Source of the DNA: Escherichia coli O157:H7
Lineage (GTDB): Bacteria; Pseudomonadota; Gammaproteobacteria; Enterobacterales; Enterobacteriaceae
Strand: one strand, 5' to 3'
NCBI RefSeq assembly: GCF_013167455.1
Contig: NZ_CP038328.1
Length of the DNA stretch: 64,000 nt
In this document: piece by piece, positions 2,859 through 27,130 of the stretch
How the letters are laid out: the number at the start of each line of letters is the position of its first letter
Numbering within the stretch: position 1 is the first letter of the stretch
The notes under the pieces: model-generated
Database searches by the model: none
What the model saw: the letters and a program-made list of their open reading frames with translations, nothing else
What the model was told of the DNA's origin: nothing
Program-made: the position numbers and the translations under genes

Positions 2859-3105
2859 ATATACAATAATTATTTGCACTGCCCCGCCAGCTGTAATAGC
2901 GGGGCTTCGTTTTTCAGGGGTAACAAACCCCGATACTTCTTCTATTTGCCAGCAACAATGCCTCTCTTCTGTAGCGTTCTTCGGATCTACATCATCCTGA
3001 AGTAGCGCGATATACTCACTGACTATCTGAATCAGAATATAAAAAGCAATGTTTTTAACCTATAAAAATGGCGCTGTATTTGCGCCATTTTTATCATTCA
3101 ATGCA

Positions 3106-7984: not shown

Positions 7985-8941
7985 ATGTCATACCCGCTTT
8001 TTGATAAAGACGAACACTGGCATAAGCCAGAGCAGGCGTTTCTCACCGATGACCACCGGACCATTCTGCGCTTCGCCGTAGAGGCGCTAATGTCCGGTAA
8101 AGGAGCGGTGCTGGTGACGCTGGTGGAGATACGCGGCGGCGCGGCGCGCCCGCTCGGGGCGCAGATGGTGGTGCGCGAAGATGGTCGTTACTGCGGTTTT
8201 GTCTCTGGCGGCTGCGTGGAGGCCGCTGCCGCTTTTGAAGCGCTGGAGATGATGGGCTCAGGCTGCGATCGCGAAATTCGCTATGGCGAAGGTTCGCCGT
8301 GGTTTGACATCGTTCTGCCCTGCGGCGGTGGGATCACGCTGACGCTCCATAAACTACGCTCGGCACAGCCTCTGCTCGCCGTGCTGAACCGCCTGGAACA
8401 GAGAAAACCGGCGGGGCTGCGCTACGATCCGCAAGCACAATCGTTGGTGTGCCTGCCCACGCAAACCCGAACGGGCTGGAATCTCAATGGCTTTGAGGTG
8501 GGGTTCAGGCCATGCGTCAGGCTGATGATTTACGGACGTTCTCTTGAGGCGCAGGCAACCGCGAGTCTTGCAGCAGCCACAGGCTATGACAGCCATATCT
8601 TCGATCTTTTTCCGGCCTCAGCCAGCGCTCAGATCGATACCGATACGGCGGTCATTTTGCTGTGCCATGATCTCAACCGGGAGCTGCCAGTGTTGCAGGC
8701 CGCGCGAGAAGCAAAACCCTTTTATCTCGGCGCATTGGGCAGCTATCGAACCCACACGTTACGTCTGCAAAAGCTCCACGAGCTGGGATGGTCCAGGGAG
8801 GAGACAGCGCAAATCCGGGCACCCGTCGGGATATTCCCCAAAGCCCGGAATGCGCATACACTGGCCCTCTCCGTGCTGGCAGAAGTCGCCTCTGTACGTC
8901 TCCATCAGGAGGAGGATTCATGCCTGCCCCCGTCGTCCTGA
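7985..8941 (+). CDS. paoD: XdhC-like molybdenum cofactor insertion chaperone PaoD
   Basis: 318 aa directly after paoC with AGGAGG RBS; XdhC/CoxI-like; operon context. Confidence 0.7.
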   Translation: MSYPLFDKDEHWHKPEQAFLTDDHRTILRFAVEALMSGKGAVLVTLVEIRGGAARPLGAQMVVREDGRYCGFVSGGCVEAAAAFEALEMMGSGCDREIRYGEGSPWFDIVLPCGGGITLTLHKLRSAQPLLAVLNRLEQRKPAGLRYDPQAQSLVCLPTQTRTGWNLNGFEVGFRPCVRLMIYGRSLEAQATASLAAATGYDSHIFDLFPASASAQIDTDTAVILLCHDLNRELPVLQAAREAKPFYLGALGSYRTHTLRLQKLHELGWSREETAQIRAPVGIFPKARNAHTLALSVLAEVASVRLHQEEDSCLPPSS

Positions 8942-9119
8942 TCCTTGCGGCCGGGCGTGGAAAGCGCTTTCTCACCTCCGGGGGAAATACCATAAATTAA
9001 GAGAAAAATTTGCAGTAGCCGTTTTAGAAAATCACCTAAATCGTTTAAAAGAGCGCCCTACCCATAGTGGTTGCTCATCGCCTTGTGTAACTTTTTCAGC
9101 AACGCGCGCCCTCGCCGGA

Positions 9120-17227: not shown

Positions 17228-19618
17228 TTATTTCGCTGCAAACTCATCGCATTTTGGCAACCAGTCAGCATTGCTTTCCTCTCTTAGGGCCAGATTAGTC
17301 TGCATTCCTTGATTGGTCCGTCGTTTCTCATACTGCAGCCCATATTCCTTGAGCATTAACGGTAGCCCCTTGCCAAACATGGTCAGACTGAGCGTATTTT
17401 TATAGCCGTTAGCCTCCATGTAGACCAGATAGGCATGGTAGAGGTAAGTTCGAGGCTGACGTGGAACAATATTAGCGTTCCCCATAAACATGCCCGTGGT
17501 GTCAGGTAGGACCTCAAGGTAGCCGCAAAAATCAAAAGCTGAATCAGCATCACGTTTGATGGTGAGCGCTTCATCGGAGTTCTGCTGTGACTGAAGCAAT
17601 GTCCTGGCACTCATTGGGTCGCTGAAACGCTGCATAAGCTGGCGAACAATCACCGCTAGCTCACTGGCAATTTTCTCTTTGAGCTGGGTATCGCGTTCCT
17701 CCGGGGCTATCTGGTCGGGGAAATGCAGGATCACCCTTCGGCGTGAAACTCCACCACTACGATCAGTGAAGCGCATCGGATTATTGTTCACAGCCAGGAT
17801 GACCGCCGGGATGTGGGTTGAATAGGCGTTCTGATATTTGGGATCAACGGATACCGCATCGCCGCCAGTGATGGCTTTTAGTCCGGCCCCGTCACCGCTC
17901 CACTTTTCCTGGTCGGGAAGTCGAATCAGTGAAAAACCTATTAACGCAGCTCGTTCTCTTGGCGACTCAAGCATTTCAATGGTTGCCGAGGTCGCGTTAT
18001 CTTCACCCGCCAGCATGGTTGCTATTTCAGCAAGAATACTCTTTCCACTTCCGCCAGGGCCAGTGACCTCCAGAAACAGCTGCCAGTCATAACGGTTAGC
18101 CAGCACCATAAACAATGCAGCCAGAATAATGTCCCGTTTTTCAGGATTAAAACCTGCGGCACGATCCAGCCAGCGCCAGAATGCCGGGGCATGGGTTTCC
18201 AGTGACTCACCGTCAACGGGCTGCGTGTAATCCACCTCGCACAGCGTACGTAACCAGTGCTTCTTATCGTGCGGGCTGAACAATCCTGTCCGGGTATCGA
18301 GCACACCGTTGCGAAATCCGATAAGTTGCCGCGCCGGATTCTGCTGTTGCGGAACGATCAGTTTGAGGGTTTCCACGAGAGACGCAATTTTCGCGGATGA
18401 AAAAGGTGCGTCGAGGCGCTGAAACAGCGCAGCGACATCACGGGCAAAATCGGCGTAATAGATAACTTTCCAGGCCCCCGCCTCATAGCGTGAAAGGAGC
18501 TGCCCGTTCGGGTCTACTGCCAGTGAATTTTTATAGTGATCCACTACCCTCTGCGCTTTTTCGCTGACGCTCAGCGCGGTAAATTCAGCTTCGCTCATTG
18601 TGTCGAAGGGGCTGGCAACAGCTGGTTTTATTACTTCATGAATTGCATGCCGGGTGGCTTCTTCGCCGTTTTGCGTGAATGCATCGTTCCAGTCACCAAA
18701 CACAGGCGGGAGCGCCATTGTGCAATTGCAGGCCCCGGTAACAGCTGCGCCCCTTGTTTGCCCCGCACCGTTGAGATCGCGGTCAGCAGCAATAATTATC
18801 TGGTGCGTTGGGTACTCACTGCAGGCAATGCTCGCCAGGGAAAGGAAATTGACGGACGAAAAGGCCACCATGACAGCATCGCCAGTCAGATAGTTGATAG
18901 TAAGTGCGGTGGCATATCCTTCCGCTATCCAGAGCCGTTTGGCTGCTTTGGCAGTACCTTCAACCAGGTAAAAGGCATTCTTAACCTGACCGCCTTTAAG
19001 GAAGCATTTGCCCCCATTAGCGTTGATTAACTGCAGATTTACCAGCTCTCCATCTGCATACAATGGAACGACAAGATCTCCCGCGCGAAATGCCACACCA
19101 CCGACTTTATGCATAGCGGTTAATTCCCGGCAAGGCAGTGCAGGAAACCCTTTACTCGTCAGATAGGCATTGCCAGTGGTCTGGCGGGACTTATCAAACA
19201 AACGGGCAGCCAGCACTGCTGCAGCTTTTCTCCCGTCCTCTTTTTCAGGAGAACCAGATTCAAGCATTCCCTGAGATACTGGCAGCAGGTTTCCGATAAT
19301 GCCGTTTATTCTGTCTGCCGCTTCACTAATGCCTACATCCAGTACTTTACTTACAAGCGCCAGGCCATCACCTGCCCCGCACTGGTTACAGAACCACGTT
19401 CCCCGCCCTTCCTGGTCATCAAATCGAAAGCGGTCTTTCCCGGCACAGACCGGGCAGGGCTGGTGCCGATTTTTCAGTACATTTACGCCCAGCGCAGGTA
19501 AAATTCTTGACCAGTGACCCCGAGCTGCTTTCTCAGCCTGGCTAACTTTCATTCCTGACATTGTGCGGCCCTCCTTAGTGCAGCGCTGGTTTGTTGAGGT
19601 GACGGGAACAAAGTTCAT
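17228..19618 (-). CDS. P4 alpha-like primase/helicase (N-terminal start uncertain)
   Basis: Zinc-binding [14 protein letters not shown]...CNQCG motif, primase/Toprim region and P-loop ([11 protein letters not shown]) in a roughly 780-aa protein. Confidence 0.85.
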
Positions 19619-19898
19619 CCATGACCGTCATTCCGAGCAGTGAGAGAACCGGACAGGCTTTAAGCGGCCCCGACTCCATCAGATCCGAAAGCAACGCGCA
19701 GGCAATTTCCAGCCCTCTTTGCTGCCCATGCTGGCGCAGATAGAACCCTTCCAGCTCGCGGGCTATGGCATCTTCAAGTTCAGCGAGCGTCAGGCCGGAA
19801 TAACGTTCCTGATGATTGCTTAGAGCCAGCCAGGCACAGGCAACGGCACGGCGATACAGAGCGGCACGAAGTGCCAGAAGAGATTCACAGCATATCAT
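19575..19898 (-). CDS. Hypothetical satellite-phage protein upstream of primase
   Basis: 107-aa ORF with start overlapping the stop of the upstream ORF; left-operon position. Confidence 0.35.
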
Positions 19899-20119
19899 CA
19901 GGCCACCTCCGCATTCATCAGGTCGTCATGGCAGCGTTGCACCACTCCATCCAGTTGCTCTGTCATCAGATAAATGAGGGAAACCAGTTGTTCGCATTGG
20001 GCACCTGCTGGCTTTTCATAACAGTCCTGCAGGGCTGCCATGCCAGTTACATACTCACCCACATTGCGTAAATGTTTCAGCCTTACAACATCGTCGTAGG
20101 AAATCTCAAACTGGTTCAT
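19898..20119 (-). CDS. Hypothetical small satellite-phage protein (epsilon-like position)
   Basis: 73-aa ORF translationally coupled to downstream ORF. Confidence 0.35.
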
Positions 20120-20669
20120 AGCGTCACCTCCCCGGCAGGCAGCCGTGCAGAAAGGGAGAGTACATAATCTCGGACTAGCAAACGGCGCGCGGAACGCTCA
20201 TCGCAGGAGACAGTGCGAAGCATACAGATGCGGGGGTGAGTGTCAGCACGGCGGATTGCGGCAAACACAAAGACATATTGCGGGTGTGACGGGGTGAGGA
20301 TTGTAGCCATGATGGCAGCCTCCAATAAGTAGCGGTTATTGCTACCACCGGAAACGCCAATTTCACTGGTGGCAGCCCGAACGGGGTTGGCGTAACCGGC
20401 CTTATTGGAAACCGGCCAGCCCGAAGGCTGCCCCGCCCGGACTACCATTATCTCGATAGAACCATGGTGTAAGCATAAACACCACAGCCCTGAAAATGGT
20501 TGTGCCTGAGCTACGACGTAAAAAAAGACGCAAGGGGCGTCAATTGTCGCCAATAAGTTATACGGAACGCCAATTCCGGCTGCCGATTTTGCGACAGCGG
20601 AAAAACTATACCTGGAAATGACGACAGTAAGCAAGCCAGAATAAAGGTATTTAATGTATGCAGGTATCA

Positions 20670-20930
20670 TCATGCATCACATCCCCGCCCACGGGCGCTG
20701 ATGCGGTCCGCCATCCATGCGCTGACCTCAGACTGTGCCCAGGCGACATTTTTACCGCCAAGCGGGATCTGCTTCGGAAACGCATCGCGGCTGATCAGGT
20801 CGTAAACGGTCGAACGGGACAACCCGCATAAGTGCATCACCTCAGGCAGGCGTAAAAATCGCTCATGATGGTTCGATACAGGAAATAATGGCGCAGCAGG
20901 AGCTGGCGCAGACACAGAAATATTACGCAT
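20670..20930 (-). CDS. alpA: AlpA-family phage transcriptional regulator / excisionase-like
   Basis: [40 protein letters not shown] matches AlpA/MerR-like HTH. Confidence 0.7.
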
Positions 20931-21863
20931 TTATCTACCCTCTTTAATTTCCACAACAGTCCGGATGAATTTATCCGGGTTCAGGTAGTTCCTTATTATG
21001 TGTATATAAACCACCTGCGCACGCATTTTTTATTTAGCGTCACATATTGATTTTATGGAATTTAAAGCCCGATTAAACCATATAAAATGACATAATAAAT
21101 ACCATGCCTGCGGACTATAAATACAGGAGCATTAATAGGAACTACCATTCACCCAGGGTTTACTATCCTATGGGTCATTGCACCTGATAGTGCTAACCCC
21201 ACCGCCAATACAGCAAGGCAGTACAACTTCTACACGAGGCCTTGCATTGCAGGCCCCAATTTCCGGGCATATTTTTGAATCGCATCCAACTTATAAACAT
21301 TGGGCCTGCATAAAAACCTTGATATTAAATAACATCACCTTAAATCGTAAAATATATCCGAATGAATCCATAAAGAACCGGACAGATCTAGTTTTATAAA
21401 AATCAGTATGAAATGCAACACCATGGCCAGAGGCGAAAATGTTATTCCCCGGCAAAAACATGCAGTCTATTTATGTGCCTGTTGAATACTCCTGAATAAG
21501 GGTGAATAGTGGTGAGGAGCAAAAAACAAATAGCTACGAGGAATAAAAAAACCACCCATTATGAAAAAATACCATAAATAATTTTATTCCCATGTGAACA
21601 GTTATGAACAGTCGATGAATACTGCCATGCCAACCCTTCACCTTATAACCTTCTGTATTACCTATTTTTTTTACCTAAGTGAATAGTAGTGAATAGTTAA
21701 GGTAAGTCTGAAACAGCCTTAGTTAAACGAGGCCTTTTCTGGCTAGCCAAAAGAGGTCCGGGGCGGTTCAGTCTTTGTCTTGTCGCTCGCACAATGGCGT
21801 TCAATGGCAGCTTTGTATGCATCACAGCACAATTGACACCACGACAAACCACTAGGTGCTGAC

Positions 21864-23851: not shown

Positions 23852-24418
23852 TTAAACAGGATAAAAACCAGAGCTTCCATTCTTATTTAAGTTATGGATT
23901 TTATTTGCATCATTAATTTTTATTTGGAACGTCGGACCTTTATTCTCAAGAATTACAATCTGGAAATTATAGTCCCTTTTGATTAATGCGTGATAAAATG
24001 AATCACTGAGACTGACGCTATTAACATCCGATAGAGAACCCCCTCTATCTTTATCAAAGTGCGTCACTAATGGACTATCAAGCACAACAAATCCAATGAA
24101 TGGATTCCCTTTTCTTGATAAAAATTCCGCAAAGCAAATGGTAAATATAGCATGCATTACTGCACGGGTACCTTTACCAAACATTCCTCGGCGTTTCCCA
24201 TTGATATTAAAGTCATATGTATCTTCGTCAAATCGCACTTTGTTATCTTTAGAATTTTCAAAATTTATATCATTCAAAAAGTCTTGCATCGCTATTTCTA
24301 TATCATACAAATCAGCTACTGTTAAGGAGTCAAAGTCCTCGGCGGAGTATTTAAGTTCGTCAACATCATCTTCTTTATCTTGTAATGAAGATAGAATGCT
24401 ATGTTTTGTGTGATCCAT
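23852..24418 (-). CDS. Cargo ORF F: C-terminal ABC/SMC-like ATPase half (signature-like motif + Walker B-like)
   Basis: GKGTRAVMHAIFTICFAEFL followed by FIGFVVLDSPLVTHFD resembles ABC signature/Walker B/D-loop; start overlaps stop of ORF E (TAATG). Confidence 0.5.
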   Translation of the reverse strand: MDHTKHSILSSLQDKEDDVDELKYSAEDFDSLTVADLYDIEIAMQDFLNDINFENSKDNKVRFDEDTYDFNINGKRRGMFGKGTRAVMHAIFTICFAEFLSRKGNPFIGFVVLDSPLVTHFDKDRGGSLSDVNSVSLSDSFYHALIKRDYNFQIVILENKGPTFQIKINDANKIHNLNKNGSSGFYPV

Positions 24419-25008
24419 TAAAAGATTGTCTTTATATTCATAAAGTGATTCAAGAGATGAATGTATTGTTTTATATTTTTATCTTCTAACGTCTTAAAAT
24501 CACTTTTTTCTGATTGATAAATTTCATTAACATCATTTTTTCTTAACATAATTAATTCATGTTCGCGAACATTAGATCCGATTGATTCAATTAATCCTTT
24601 CAGCTGGCTTTTGATTTTCAATTTTTCTGCATTACACGACAAAAAACAATCATCATATGATATTTCATTTTCTTTTTTTTGCGGTGTATTACAGAACTCA
24701 CAATAAATATCTGCAAAATTATTTAAATAGAAATTCGCCTGTGATACAACATCTATTCTTTGTAGATCTATAAAGTATTGGTCTTTAAGAAGACTAAATC
24801 TTTCAATGAGTAATGATAAGTATTTTTCCCTGTCACTGATTGAATATAATTCATCACTTAACTCTTTTAATAATTGCTTCTTATCATCAAGTGCATCAAC
24901 AATACCTTTCAATATATCTTTCGATGATTCAATATCTTGCTCTACTTTCTCAAGTTCTCTTGAAACAATGACTTGATCATATTCAGGATAAATTAATTGC
25001 GCTTTCAA
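24418..25008 (-). CDS. Cargo ORF E: coiled-coil segment, likely middle part of the same ATPase
   Basis: 196 aa, K/E/L/D-rich helical composition; only TTG start; same frame as ORF D, separated by one TAA. Confidence 0.45.
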   Translation of the reverse strand: MKAQLIYPEYDQVIVSRELEKVEQDIESSKDILKGIVDALDDKKQLLKELSDELYSISDREKYLSLLIERFSLLKDQYFIDLQRIDVVSQANFYLNNFADIYCEFCNTPQKKENEISYDDCFLSCNAEKLKIKSQLKGLIESIGSNVREHELIMLRKNDVNEIYQSEKSDFKTLEDKNIKQYIHLLNHFMNIKTIF

Positions 25009-25038
25009 TTCCTCATAAATATTTGCAATTTGATTTTT

Positions 25039-25698
25039 TTAAAAATATCTTGCTTTTTTATTTGGTTTTTCTGCTAAGGAGTTAGTATCATCTCTCTGAG
25101 TTAAAAGGAATTTAAATTCAGACTTTCTTTTTGTCTCCTCGCTAGGAATATCAGAAAGAATTAACGACTTCTCAGTTAACACTCTTAATTCATCAATACA
25201 AAAAAATTCAAAAACATTATTAAGATTAAATTTATGAAGAGTATTACTTAAGTTTGTTCTTACTTTAGCCTCTTTGAAATTCAACCTACCATAAAAGTAT
25301 GATGAAAAACTCTTTTTAGACGAAGCACTTTTGGAAAAAACCATCAACAGATTAGCTTCACTAACATTTTCAATGCTCGAATCATATAATCTGTAATGGG
25401 CGCTATCCTGAAGAGACCTCTCAATTGTCATTACCCTACCTTGAAAATTAAATTCCAGATAGGCTAAATCATAACCTTGAGCATGATCGATATCTTTATT
25501 TTTTAGTTTTTCACTCCCTAATAAATATCGAATCAAATAATATATGTATGTTTTTCCAGAGTCAGAACCACCATATAAAATAGTCAATTTAGAACCAAAT
25601 TCAATTATAGCATCTAATTTATTGAATCCGGTTACCTTTATTTTTCTGAACGTAAAAAAATTGTCATTCATAATTAAATTCCATATCATATTTGCCAA
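25039..25698 (-). CDS. Cargo ORF D: N-terminal ABC/SMC-like ATPase head (Walker A)
   Basis: FRKIKVTGFNKLDAIIEFGSKLTILYGGSDSGKTYIYYL: SMC/AAA_15-like N-terminal strand plus Walker A GxxxxGKT. Confidence 0.55.
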   Translation of the reverse strand: MANMIWNLIMNDNFFTFRKIKVTGFNKLDAIIEFGSKLTILYGGSDSGKTYIYYLIRYLLGSEKLKNKDIDHAQGYDLAYLEFNFQGRVMTIERSLQDSAHYRLYDSSIENVSEANLLMVFSKSASSKKSFSSYFYGRLNFKEAKVRTNLSNTLHKFNLNNVFEFFCIDELRVLTEKSLILSDIPSEETKRKSEFKFLLTQRDDTNSLAEKPNKKARYF

Positions 25699-26137
25699 TT
25701 TTATTTTTTATAATTGATTGCAACTGCTCATCAGGAATATCACTATATAACTTAACCACCAAATTTATATTATGCTCCATCTGCGCAACATATTCATTAT
25801 GTAGAGAATTTGTAAATGCATATGTTTTTTCAGAAGCTTTATATACAAAACCACGATGTGTATAAATTTTTGAGGCTAGTTCATAGCCTTGCAACAAAGC
25901 CAATGATTCTAAAACAATCTCTCGTTTTAGGGCTAACTGAGCATCTCTACGGGGTATTGGAGGATGAAGACTAATCTCTTCAGGTAAAAAATCCTTAAGA
26001 TTTACTAAAATAAAATCAAAACAAATAAGCCGTTCAAGGCTTAATGAAGAAGGATAAATAGCGACGAGCACTTTCGCCATTCGACATGCCACTTCTAAAC
26101 TTGAATTATAAATTCTAACCATTATCTCACCGTCCAA
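25664..26137 (-). CDS. Cargo ORF C: hypothetical protein
   Basis: 157-aa ORF, AT-rich, overlaps neighbours by 16 and 35 nt; no recognisable motif. Confidence 0.4.
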   Translation of the reverse strand: MDGEIMVRIYNSSLEVACRMAKVLVAIYPSSLSLERLICFDFILVNLKDFLPEEISLHPPIPRRDAQLALKREIVLESLALLQGYELASKIYTHRGFVYKASEKTYAFTNSLHNEYVAQMEHNINLVVKLYSDIPDEQLQSIIKNKIGKYDMEFNYE

Positions 26138-26739
26138 ATTACTTCACCATCATTAACCAAATGATGGCATATTCCTTTTTTATCATTTGCTTCACATATT
26201 TTTGATAGTACTGAATGTGCAATTGGTGTCAGAACAGCCTGCTTCAAGACTGCATTACACCTAATAAATGCATAATTATGGTCTTCATAAAAGACGGGTT
26301 CAATTGAAGATGAAATGTAACATTTCAATGCTTTGAATACATCATCTTTAAATACTTCGCGGACAAAAACCTCAAGCGAAGATGCAAAATAAAAATCATT
26401 TCTACTATTATTAAAGTGTCGTCTGTATGGATCATCAAGCTCTAAGAAAGAACTATAAGTTTTATTTCCATGCTCTGAATAGGCTTGAAGCAGTGCATTA
26501 ACATATACAGACTCTTTTTTTGAATTGTATGTTGGAATTTCATTTGGAGGGATTCTCACGACATACAGCTCGTTAAAGTACTTAAAATAAAGGTGTGTAT
26601 TTGCAATATCATTTAAAATCAATGATAAGGGTAGAGAGTAAAAAATACTAAAATCAAAATCCTCAATATATTTTTTTATTTCATCATCTAATGGAATATC
26701 AATCTTTTTAGTTATTTTTTTGAAATTGCTGAATCCCAT
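26122..26739 (-). CDS. Cargo ORF B: hypothetical protein (possibly C-terminal part of a frameshifted gene with ORF A)
   Basis: 205-aa ORF overlapping ORF A by 28 nt across an A7 homopolymer. Confidence 0.4.
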   Translation of the reverse strand: MGFSNFKKITKKIDIPLDDEIKKYIEDFDFSIFYSLPLSLILNDIANTHLYFKYFNELYVVRIPPNEIPTYNSKKESVYVNALLQAYSEHGNKTYSSFLELDDPYRRHFNNSRNDFYFASSLEVFVREVFKDDVFKALKCYISSSIEPVFYEDHNYAFIRCNAVLKQAVLTPIAHSVLSKICEANDKKGICHHLVNDGEVIWTVR

Positions 26740-27017
26740 GAATCAAGGACTGCTTTTTTAAGCTCGTTTTTATTTTTCAATAAATTAGAAAATGTAGTAG
26801 ATAAATCATAGGGTGCCACAAAAAAGTACTTCTGAGGGATGGGATAATCACCATTCAGAGTAAAATAGATAAGTTTTCCAAACTCAACTACAACATCAGA
26901 GAACCCTAAACTTTTTTTGTACAGTTTGCATTGATAATTATCCCAAGAATAACCTTCTACGTTAGGATCCGATTTATATCCAACAACGTCTCTACCTTTA
27001 TCTCCAGCTCCTCCCAA
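26712..27017 (-). CDS. Cargo ORF A: Mrr-cat-like PD-(D/E)xK nuclease motif protein (no ATG start; possibly disrupted)
   Basis: GGAGDKGRDVVGY ... YQCKLYKK resembles the Mrr catalytic motifs (GDGGIDG ... QxK); frame stays open upstream to ATG GGA TGA TGA at 27087-27098. Confidence 0.4.
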   Translation of the reverse strand: MGGAGDKGRDVVGYKSDPNVEGYSWDNYQCKLYKKSLGFSDVVVEFGKLIYFTLNGDYPIPQKYFFVAPYDLSTTFSNLLKNKNELKKAVLDSWDSAISKK

Positions 27018-27130
27018 ACGTTCGCTCCACGGGTAATCATCTGATTTACAGACAATAAGCCAATCATGGACAAATACCTCCCATGTTCATCATCCCATGT
27101 CAATATTTCCGAAAGTGGTTGAGACACAAA

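What the first reader, a model, noticed from the sequence alone, without database searches (positions are those of the whole stretch)
20120..20670. Long ORF-poor, GC-rich structured region between alpA and the left-operon ORFs: possible immunity RNA region
Seen in sequence: the only ORF here (185 aa, 20116-20673) is low-complexity and implausible as a protein, while the DNA has several GC-rich inverted repeats. Established knowledge: P4 immunity is mediated by a small processed CI RNA encoded in the leader of the left operon upstream of alpha. Inference: this interval may encode the equivalent RNA and its targets.
Basis: inference. Interest (0 to 1): 0.4.

Follow-up and report, generated by a model that had tools for sequence, protein, structure and literature searches.

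The report
P4-type RNA immunity region of a satellite prophage
This stretch is the antisense-RNA "immunity" switch of a P4-like satellite prophage of E. coli O157:H7 (a small repressor RNA, its two target sites, a terminator and an overlapping kil gene); it is a well-understood kind of system, here with its own recognition sequences.

Summary
On the minus strand, between the alpA/vis-like gene and the alpha primase operon, Rfam finds a C4/CI antisense RNA (20452-20365, 84 bits, cutoff 45). It also finds an IsrK/seqA-type leader ending in a hairpin plus T-run (20598-21, 71.9 bits, cutoff 50). Phage P4 gives the same hits in the same order, and the DNA aligns to the P4 immunity region at about 69% identity.

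Two single-stranded segments of the RNA (CCAAUAAG and ACGCCAA) are complementary to a site pair upstream (seqA) and a site pair downstream (seqC). The downstream pair abuts the ribosome-binding site of a kil/Icd-like gene. Across 61 distinct P4-like loci these pairings hold in 100% and 98.7% of cells, with 12 compensatory pairs each. P4 uses different recognition sequences, so this element should be heteroimmune to P4.

It is the counterpart of P4 eta, with kil nested at its end. Its last 64 codons evolve like a real gene. The first 121 codons show no coding-type constraint, yet the frame stays open in 68 of 70 relatives.

This is a new member of a known kind, and interest is low.

The parts
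20670..20930 (-). alpA/vis-like gene (86 aa). Its stop overlaps the eta start (ATGA).
   Evidence: PF05930 Phage_AlpA, 70.3 bits. PHROG excisionase/regulator. Coding-type third-position variability. ATGA overlap read from the sequence.
20116..20673 (-). eta-like reading frame (185 codons) that runs through the promoter, leader, CI gene and seqC and ends with kil.
   Evidence: 57% identical to the 199-codon P4 eta frame. Frame open in 68 of 70 distinct relatives, against 4-6 stops in the other frames. No third-position excess upstream of kil. Pfam Phage_ASH at aa 22-132.
20605..20634 (-). PLE-like constitutive promoter: -35 TTGCTT (20634-20629), 18-nt spacer, -10 TATAGT (20610-20605).
   Evidence: Aligns with the TATAGT annotated as a -10 in P4 record X02534. 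GGCTTGC and TA(T/C)AGT are conserved in all relatives. Not flagged by the consensus scan because the -35 is weak.
20521..20598 (-). IsrK/seqA-type leader RNA: two hairpins, target sites a1 and b1, and terminator t1.
   Evidence: Rfam isrK RF01394, 71.9 bits (cutoff 50). c4-a1b1 RF03163, 44.6 bits (cutoff 46.7) at 20559-20611. Hairpins paired in 86-100% of cells.
20567..20573 (-). a1 target (UUGGCGU) in the loop of the second leader hairpin.
   Evidence: Perfect complement of CI a'. 100% paired across 61 loci, with 6 of 7 pairs compensatory.
20550..20557 (-). b1 target (CUUAUUGG).
   Evidence: Perfect complement of CI b'. 100% paired, with 6 of 8 pairs compensatory.
20521..20541 (-). t1-like intrinsic terminator (GACGC-CCCUU-GCGUC followed by U7).
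   Evidence: Terminator scan. Stem paired in 100% of cells, with G-C to C-G swaps in 13 loci. Forms the 3' end of the isrK model match.
20365..20452 (-). CI (C4-type) antisense immunity RNA gene: a 17-bp closing stem (20447-20431 with 20386-20370) and two hairpins.
   Evidence: Rfam C4 RF01695, 84 bits (cutoff 45), E 1e-16. MFE -50.8 kcal/mol, z -4.9. 99.9% of cells paired and 9 compensatory pairs across 42 distinct sequences.
20401..20408 (-). b' specificity segment (CCAAUAAG) in the loop of the second CI hairpin.
20387..20393 (-). a' specificity segment (ACGCCAA) in the junction between hairpin 2 and the closing stem.
20354..20360 (-). a2 target (UUGGCGU) of seqC, in the loop of a conserved hairpin.
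   Evidence: Extended 13-nt complementarity with the a' region (I1).
20321..20329 (-). b2 target (CUUAUUGGA) of seqC. It overlaps the kil Shine-Dalgarno GGAGG, and the kil ATG lies 10 nt downstream.
20116..20310 (-). kil/Icd-like gene (64 aa), nested in the eta frame. Its 5' part is C-rich and G-poor (rut-like).
   Evidence: NCBIfam phage_ICD_like, 63.9 bits. Codon-position entropy 0.30/0.28/0.84. 41% C against 17% G at 20300-20223. Stop overlaps the next ORF's ATG.
17228..20119 (-). Regulated downstream genes: orf73 (19898-20119), a DUF5375 orf of 107 aa (19575-19898), and the alpha primase-helicase (17228-19618).

Best explanation
The interval is the immunity region of a P4-like satellite prophage of E. 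coli O157:H7, probably the element called Sp2 in strain Sakai. It most likely works as in phage P4.

In the lysogen:
1. A constitutive promoter (-10 TATAGT, 20610-20605, minus strand) inside the eta frame transcribes a leader.
2. A stable antisense RNA of roughly 70-80 nt, CI (gene 20452-20365), is cut out of that leader.
3. CI exposes two recognition segments, b' CCAAUAAG and a' ACGCCAA.
4. CI pairs with a1/b1 (seqA) on nascent leaders. This favours termination at the hairpin plus U-run t1 (20541-20521), yields a 77-nt IsrK-like RNA, and autoregulates CI.
5. CI also pairs with a2/b2 (seqC). The b2 site covers the kil ribosome-binding site, so kil is not translated.
6. The untranslated, C-rich kil RNA then terminates. 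By analogy with P4 this is partly Rho-dependent.
7. As a result orf73, the DUF5375 gene and the alpha replication gene stay off.

When a late promoter upstream of alpA fires:
1. Ribosomes pass from alpA into eta through the ATGA overlap.
2. They translate through the whole region and carry transcription past the terminators.

Shown here: the homology, the RNA structure, the three-way complementarity with covariation, the overlap of b2 with the kil ribosome-binding site, the terminator motif, the conserved open frame and the gene overlaps.

Inferred from P4: RNA processing, the termination events themselves, Rho involvement and the late promoter.
For: - Rfam C4 scores 84 bits and isrK 71.9 bits, both above their gathering cutoffs. 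They are the only such hits in the 64-kb window.
- P4 gives the same three hits in the same order.
- The region is about 69% identical to and collinear with P4 8180-8961.
- The CI fold is -50.8 kcal/mol with z -4.9.
- CI structure: 99.9% of cells paired and 9 compensatory pairs, against 28-53% paired in slid controls.
- CI-seqA pairing holds in 100% of cells and CI-seqC in 98.7%, across 61 distinct loci. Each has 12 compensatory pairs, and slid controls give 36-52%.
- At least 5 a-alleles and at least 9 b-alleles occur, always matched at all three copies.
- b2 ends 10 nt before the kil ATG and overlaps GGAGG.
- The t1 hairpin plus T-run is present and conserved.
- The eta frame is open in 68 of 70 relatives, against 4-6 stops in the other frames. 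Shuffles give P(0 stops) = 0.0065.
- kil and alpA show a coding signature, and the rest of eta does not.
- The 5' part of kil has the highest C/G ratio in the operon.
- The literature describes the P4 mechanism and the equivalences IsrK = seqA and C4 = CI: PMC3632133, PMC4825925, PMC10111431.
Against: - There is no expression data for this locus. Transcript ends, RNase P processing and termination are all by analogy.
- The c4-a1b1 model scores just below its cutoff (44.6 against 46.7). P4 itself also does (44.1).
- The -35 hexamer is weak, and the generic promoter scan did not flag the promoter.
- The host element lacks an epsilon homologue. Its O157 helper is reported to be degraded (PMC2669165), so the satellite's lytic programme may rarely run.
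- The near-identical copies in about 306 genomes are largely one clone (O157). They say little about selection on this particular allele.
Confidence: 0.88

Rival explanations
1. The interval is simply a protein-coding gene: a 185-aa 'Icd-like/Ash' regulator, as annotated in RefSeq and PHROGs. On this view the RNA-model matches are a by-product of conserved coding sequence.
For: RefSeq annotates the whole ORF as a host cell division inhibitor Icd-like protein. It matches Pfam Phage_ASH at 104.6 bits and PHROG 6928 'transcriptional repressor' at 248 bits. The open frame is conserved.
Against: - The first 121 codons show no third-position excess (0.38-0.94 at all three positions). alpA and kil in the same alignment show it clearly.
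- Variation in that part is organised as base-pair covariation within CI and between CI and two distant sites. A protein constraint cannot produce this pattern.
- The old 'cI protein' annotation of P4 is superseded by the finding that the repressor is an RNA (PMC4825925, PMC10111431).
Confidence: 0.03
2. The RNA switch is a P1 c4/icd/ant-type translational switch rather than a P4-type terminator switch. CI acts essentially only by occluding the kil (icd-like) ribosome-binding site. Downstream genes are silenced through translational coupling and polarity, and termination at t1 plays no regulatory part.
For: The Rfam family was defined on P1/P7 C4. kil carries the Icd-like domain. b2 overlaps the SD. 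All genes of the operon overlap by ATGA/TGATG-type junctions. The rut-like stretch lies inside kil.
Against: - The locus is collinear with P4, not P1, and is about 69% identical to it.
- The upstream a1/b1 pair and the t1 terminator are as strictly conserved and covarying as the downstream pair. This argues that seqA/t1 has a function.
- The two models overlap. In P4 the translational block of kil is itself thought to be the route to termination (PMC10111431).
Confidence: 0.07
3. The region is an inactive relic. The prophage is defective, and the RNAs are no longer made or no longer matter.
For: The O157 Sakai P4-like prophage is described as atypical, and its P2-like partner as degraded (PMC2669165). 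There is no epsilon homologue. Two relatives (L068, L074) have a broken eta frame.
Against: Every element is intact in the window: the promoter hexamers, the terminator, all 27 CI base pairs, the perfect 7-9-nt complementarity at all four target sites, and the intact kil, eta, alpA and alpha frames. TraDIS in S. Typhi found the IsrK-like elements of P4-like prophages to be required (PMC3632133).
Confidence: 0.06

Closest known systems
Phage P4 immunity region (PLE - seqA - t1 - cI - seqC - kil/eta - timm)
   Same: - Same gene order: alpA/vis, eta with internal promoter, leader, CI, kil, then the alpha operon.
- About 69% nucleotide identity.
- Same three Rfam hits.
- Same CI fold.
- Same arrangement of two-part targets upstream and downstream, with b2 on the kil SD.
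- eta is 57% identical and kil much more.
   Different: - The recognition sequences differ: a' is ACGCCAA here and UUCUCAC in P4, and b' is CCAAUAAG here and CCUGUGAA in P4. Cross-immunity with P4 is therefore not expected.
- There is a 39-nt in-frame deletion between t1 and CI.
- Downstream of kil there is a 73-aa ORF unrelated to P4 epsilon, and orf151 is absent.
P1/P7 C4 antisense RNA with icd-ant (Rfam RF01695, RF03163)
   Same: An RNA of the same Rfam family, processed from the leader of the operon it represses. It has a'/b' segments and a1b1/a2b2 targets, and the first downstream ORF is Icd-like.
   Different: In P1 the regulated product is an antirepressor (Ant), and the host is a plasmid prophage. 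Here the regulated genes are satellite replication genes, and an overlapping eta frame provides read-through.
Salmonella Gifsy-1 IsrK / STnc1160 and the IsrK-C4 modules of lambdoid (including Stx) phages
   Same: The leader matches the isrK model. Stx1a and Stx2a phages and phage 2H10 carry the same IsrK + C4 pair. PMC4825925 calls SeqA a structural homologue of IsrK.
   Different: [quoted passage not shown] Their specificity segments differ from the window's. The exception is a' of 2H10, which is identical (ACGCCAA).

Membership tests
C4/CI antisense RNA (Rfam RF01695; P4 CI) | Covariance-model score at or above the curated gathering cutoff | tested here: met
   84.0 bits against a cutoff of 45, full-length match to model positions 1-87. 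P4 itself scores 74.9.
C4/CI antisense RNA (Rfam RF01695; P4 CI) | Long closing stem enclosing two hairpins, supported by covariation | tested here: met
   27 pairs, 99.9% of cells paired, 9 pairs with compensatory changes, slid controls 28-53%. The MFE structure matches the model.
C4/CI antisense RNA (Rfam RF01695; P4 CI) | Two exposed segments (a', b') complementary to a site pair upstream and a site pair downstream in the same transcript | tested here: met
   Perfect matches of 7 and 8 nt upstream and 7 and 9 nt downstream. 100% and 98.7% of cells paired across 61 loci, with 12 compensatory pairs each.
C4/CI antisense RNA (Rfam RF01695; P4 CI) | Downstream target overlaps the ribosome-binding site of the first translated gene (kil/icd) | tested here: met
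   In CUUAUUGGAGGCUGCCAUCAUG, b2 overlaps GGAGG and the ATG lies 10 nt after b2.
C4/CI antisense RNA (Rfam RF01695; P4 CI) | Mature RNA produced by processing of the leader transcript, and conferring immunity in trans | not testable with these tools
   Needs Northern or RNA-seq end mapping and trans-repression assays.
IsrK/seqA leader (Rfam RF01394) and c4-a1b1 (RF03163) | Model score at or above the cutoff | tested here: inconclusive
   isrK scores 71.9 against 50, which is met. c4-a1b1 scores 44.6 against 46.7, just below, as does P4 at 44.1.
IsrK/seqA leader (Rfam RF01394) and c4-a1b1 (RF03163) | Ends in an intrinsic terminator (P4 t1) directly after the a1/b1 sites | tested here: met
   GACGCCCCUUGCGUC plus U7 at 20541-20521. 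Stem 100% paired with G-C to C-G swaps.
P4 eta/kil nested genes | Reading frame that starts at the alpA/vis stop, spans the promoter and the CI gene, and ends with kil | tested here: met
   185 codons, ATGA overlap with alpA, 57% identical to the P4 eta frame.
P4 eta/kil nested genes | Frame is maintained in relatives despite nucleotide divergence and indels | tested here: met
   0 stops in 68 of 70 distinct sequences, against a mean of 4.2 and 5.9 stops in the other frames. All length variants (182-199 codons) are in frame.
P4 eta/kil nested genes | Translation of eta/kil suppresses termination | not testable with these tools
   Known for P4 only, as summarised in PMC10111431. The primary paper is not held in the library.
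Pfam PF10554 Phage_ASH as a genuine protein domain | Amino-acid-level purifying selection (third codon positions more variable than first and second) | tested here: not met
   Entropy by codon position across the PF10554-matching part is 0.49/0.33/0.39 (leader), 0.76/0.87/0.94 (spacer), 0.38/0.43/0.39 (CI) and 0.68/0.57/0.50 (seqC). For kil it is 0.30/0.28/0.84.
P4-like satellite | Core set: integrase, psu, delta/ogr, sid, alpA and alpha in P4 order | tested here: met
   RefSeq annotation of the identical locus and Pfam hits. True epsilon (PF25738) is absent.

The most novel reading that the evidence does not exclude
P4-like satellites carry a combinatorial, two-module RNA 'immunity code'. In 64 sequences I found at least 5 a-alleles and at least 9 b-alleles in at least 23 combinations. 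Every allele is written three times: in seqA, in CI and in seqC. The a and b copies are interleaved (a1 b1 ... b' a' ... a2 b2), so a single crossover cannot exchange one module alone. The window (a = ACGCCAA, b = CCAAUAAG) is one such type. It is orthogonal to P4 and to the C4 RNAs of the Stx phages examined (two converting-phage genomes from the phage database). The pattern implies recurrent concerted change, or mosaic gene conversion, driven by selection for heteroimmunity among satellites and phages that share hosts. As far as I could find, this diversity has not been catalogued.
Probability: 0.35. Interest if true: 0.45.

Novelty: new member of a known kind. Interest (0 to 1): 0.2.

Why it matters
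For this locus the finding mainly corrects annotation. RefSeq labels the whole interval as one 'Icd-like' protein and lists no RNA gene. In fact the interval holds a repressor RNA, its targets, a terminator and a nested kil gene.

It predicts that this O157:H7 satellite is heteroimmune to P4 and to the Stx-phage C4 modules examined, which bears on which satellites and phages can coexist or be mobilised in EHEC.

More generally, the alignment built here shows that protein families such as Pfam Phage_ASH, which one survey lists as its 'epsilon' marker for P4-like satellites, largely reflect translated RNA sequence.

Tried and rejected
- The primary P4 papers (Forti 1999 on eta/kil, Sabbattini 1995, the Lindqvist 1993 review) are not held in the library. 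The eta/kil mechanism is therefore cited from the summary in PMC10111431 and otherwise from memory.
- One literature search on kil/eta/timm returned only unrelated papers.
- A search for the C4/isrK RNAs in O157 literature found nothing.
- The generic promoter scan did not flag the PLE-like promoter, because its -35 matches only 3 of 6 positions. It did flag an unrelated site at 20246-20219, which I do not interpret.
- The claim that the region is GC-rich was rejected.
- The weak sub-threshold Rfam hits (snoU105B, CRISPR-DR22, IS009 fragment; E 0.1-0.2) were dismissed as chance.
- I considered whether the 73-aa ORF replaces P4 epsilon by homology. It shows no similarity.
- I considered cross-immunity with the Stx-phage C4 RNAs examined. 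Their a'/b' segments differ from the window's.
- I did not use the large protein searches or structure prediction, because the ORF question was settled by family scans and comparative codon analysis.

Full report
**Where the feature lies.** Upstream on that strand is an 86-aa AlpA-family gene (20670-20930; PF05930). Downstream are a 73-aa ORF, a 107-aa DUF5375 ORF and a 796-aa primase-helicase with Zn-ribbon, Toprim, D5_N and Pox_D5 domains (17228-19618). The same DNA is 100% identical in many E. coli O157:H7 chromosomes. About 306 complete genomes carry it at 99% identity or more, and 988 of 5426 genomes hold a detectable relative. In RefSeq the locus is flanked by an integrase, a set of defence-type genes, and ogr/delta-like, psu and sid-like genes. 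It is therefore a P4-like satellite prophage. It is probably the one called Sp2 in strain Sakai, which was reported to carry an ogr-like gene and to lack epsilon (PMC2669165).

**Checking the observation.** The interval is not especially GC-rich: it is 53-55% GC, against 52-54% in alpha. It is strongly structured, however. A gathering-threshold Rfam scan of the whole window gives three hits, and two fall here:
- C4 antisense RNA at 20452-20365 (84 bits, cutoff 45).
- isrK at 20598-20521 (71.9 bits, cutoff 50).

A permissive scan adds c4-a1b1 at 20611-20559 (44.6 bits, cutoff 46.7). The CI candidate folds to -50.8 kcal/mol with z = -4.9.

**Homology with P4.** The minus strand of 20000-21000 aligns to P4 positions 8180-8961 at 69% identity and is collinear with it. 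P4 itself gives the same three Rfam hits in the same order. Two papers state that IsrK and C4 are the structural homologues of P4 seqA and CI RNA (PMC3632133; PMC4825925).

The TATAGT at 20610-20605 aligns with the hexamer annotated as a -10 in the old P4 record. With TTGCTT at 20634-20629 it forms the PLE-like promoter. The isrK match starts 7 nt after the -10. It ends in a GACGC/GCGUC hairpin followed by U7 (20541-20521), which is the counterpart of P4 terminator t1.

**The RNA and its targets.** CI exposes CCAAUAAG (b', 20408-20401) in the loop of its second hairpin. It exposes ACGCCAA (a', 20393-20387) in the adjoining junction. Perfect complements lie at two places:
- Upstream: a1 at 20573-20567 and b1 at 20557-20550.
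- Downstream: a2 at 20360-20354 and b2 at 20329-20321.

The b2 site runs into the GGAGG that precedes an ATG at 20310. P4 has different segments (CCUGUGAA and UUCUCAC) with matching targets of its own.

**Comparative test.** I fetched 80 P4-like loci through their alpha genes and extracted 70 distinct immunity regions.
- *CI structure.* On 42 distinct CI sequences the Rfam-type structure is paired in 99.9% of cells. Nine pairs carry compensatory changes, and slid controls give 28-53%.
- *CI-target pairing.* On 61 distinct leader-to-kil sequences, CI-seqA pairing holds in 100% of 915 cells and CI-seqC in 98.7% of 975 cells. Twelve pairs in each carry compensatory changes, and slid controls give 36-52%.
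- *Allele diversity.* At least five a-alleles and nine b-alleles occur in many combinations, and they always match at all three copies.
- *Local hairpins.* The leader hairpins, t1 and two hairpins around a2 are also conserved.

This is about as strong as in-silico evidence for an antisense RNA and its targets can be.

**The ORF.**
- Pfam Phage_ASH over aa 22-132.
- NCBIfam Icd-like over aa 133-179.
- PHROG 'repressor' families.
- 57% identity to the 199-codon P4 frame that starts at the vis stop.

That P4 frame is eta, with kil as its terminal part. According to the summary in PMC10111431, a constitutive promoter lies inside eta. Its transcript is terminated through the CI/seqA interactions and is processed to give CI. 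Kil is translated from read-through transcripts. Full-length Eta is translated only from an upstream late promoter, coupled to alpA, and this translation prevents termination.

The comparative data fit that picture:
- The eta frame is open in 68 of 70 distinct relatives, while the other two frames carry 4-6 stops. A shuffled sequence is stop-free with probability 0.0065.
- Length variants, including the 39-nt difference from P4, are all in frame.
- Codon-position variability shows a clear coding signature for alpA (0.36/0.25/1.07) and kil (0.30/0.28/0.84). It shows none for the 121 codons upstream of kil.

So the frame is kept open, but its amino-acid sequence is not what is conserved. The Phage_ASH 'domain' is largely translated RNA sequence.

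**Mechanism.**
- *Shown.* All parts of the P4 switch are present, intact and mutually complementary. The downstream target covers the kil ribosome-binding site. An intrinsic terminator follows the upstream target. The 5' part of kil is the most C-rich, G-poor stretch of the operon (41% C, 17% G), as expected for a Rho entry site. The genes alpA, eta, orf73, orf107 and alpha overlap or abut.
- *Inferred from P4.* CI is processed from the leader. Pairing with seqA promotes termination at t1 and autoregulates CI. Pairing with seqC blocks kil translation and leads to termination before the replication genes. Transcription from a late promoter upstream of alpA escapes because ribosomes translate eta.

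**Comparison and novelty.** This is a member of the P4 CI / P1 C4 family and is not a new mechanism. What is particular to it is its specificity pair (ACGCCAA + CCAAUAAG), which differs from P4. It also differs from the IsrK-C4 modules of the Stx1a and Stx2a phages examined (b' CCGUUGAC; a' CUGCGAA or GUGCAAA). Phage 2H10 shares the a' segment only. I found no paper describing the RNA of this O157 element, and RefSeq annotates no RNA there. The reassorting two-module code across satellites is the one aspect that may deserve a broader study.

**Verdict.** This is a new member of a known kind, and interest is low (0.2).

Noticed in passing
window 20116-20673; L001 (P4) 1695-2294 and 2287-2574: Pfam PF10554 (Phage_ASH) is listed as the 'epsilon' profile in the methods of a survey of P4-like satellites (PMC8628076). 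On P4, however, it matches the eta/'cI ORF' region that overlies the CI RNA. True epsilon matches PF25738. The 'epsilon' component counted in such surveys may therefore really be the immunity region.
   Followed up: partly
window 19898-20119 (-): The 73-aa ORF at the position of P4 epsilon has no similarity to epsilon and belongs to PHROG 10110 of unknown function. This agrees with the report that O157 Sakai Sp2 lacks epsilon (PMC2669165).
   Followed up: partly
window 20931-21863: This is an AT-rich (36-44% GC) ORF-free interval between alpA and the sid-like gene. It holds three pairs of 10-bp-spaced TGAAYAGT / GGTGAATA repeats (21493/21503, 21595/21605, 21680/21690). They resemble the P4 ori type-I repeat GGTGAACA. 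The interval is probably the replication origin plus the divergent late promoters.
   Followed up: partly
L084, L085, L086 (Stx1a phage, Stx2a phage, phage 2H10): These lambdoid phages, two of them Stx-converting, carry homologous IsrK + C4 modules inside ORFs annotated as Ant or regulator. Their specificity segments differ from the window's, except that 2H10 has the identical a' segment ACGCCAA.
   Followed up: partly
window 23852-27127 (-): A cluster between the delta/ogr-like gene and the integrase is annotated in RefSeq as ABC-three-component system proteins, an AAA ATPase and hypothetical proteins. It lies at the known defence hotspot of P4-like satellites (PMC9122126 is listed).
   Followed up: no
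window 2901-3100 (-): Rfam IS009 (RF02111) matches at 190.8 bits, well above its cutoff. It is unrelated to the finding.
   Followed up: no
L068, L074, L050: Two relatives have a disrupted eta frame: L068 through a 1-nt insertion just before the kil ATG, and L074 also. L050 carries a second, partial copy of the alpA-promoter-seqA segment about 550 bp upstream of the complete one.
   Followed up: no
L076, L053, L074 leader b1 site: In these loci the upstream b1 site pairs with b' through a G-U wobble (CUCAGUG against CAUUGAG), while the downstream b2 site is fully Watson-Crick. This may be an intermediate in a change of specificity.
   Followed up: no
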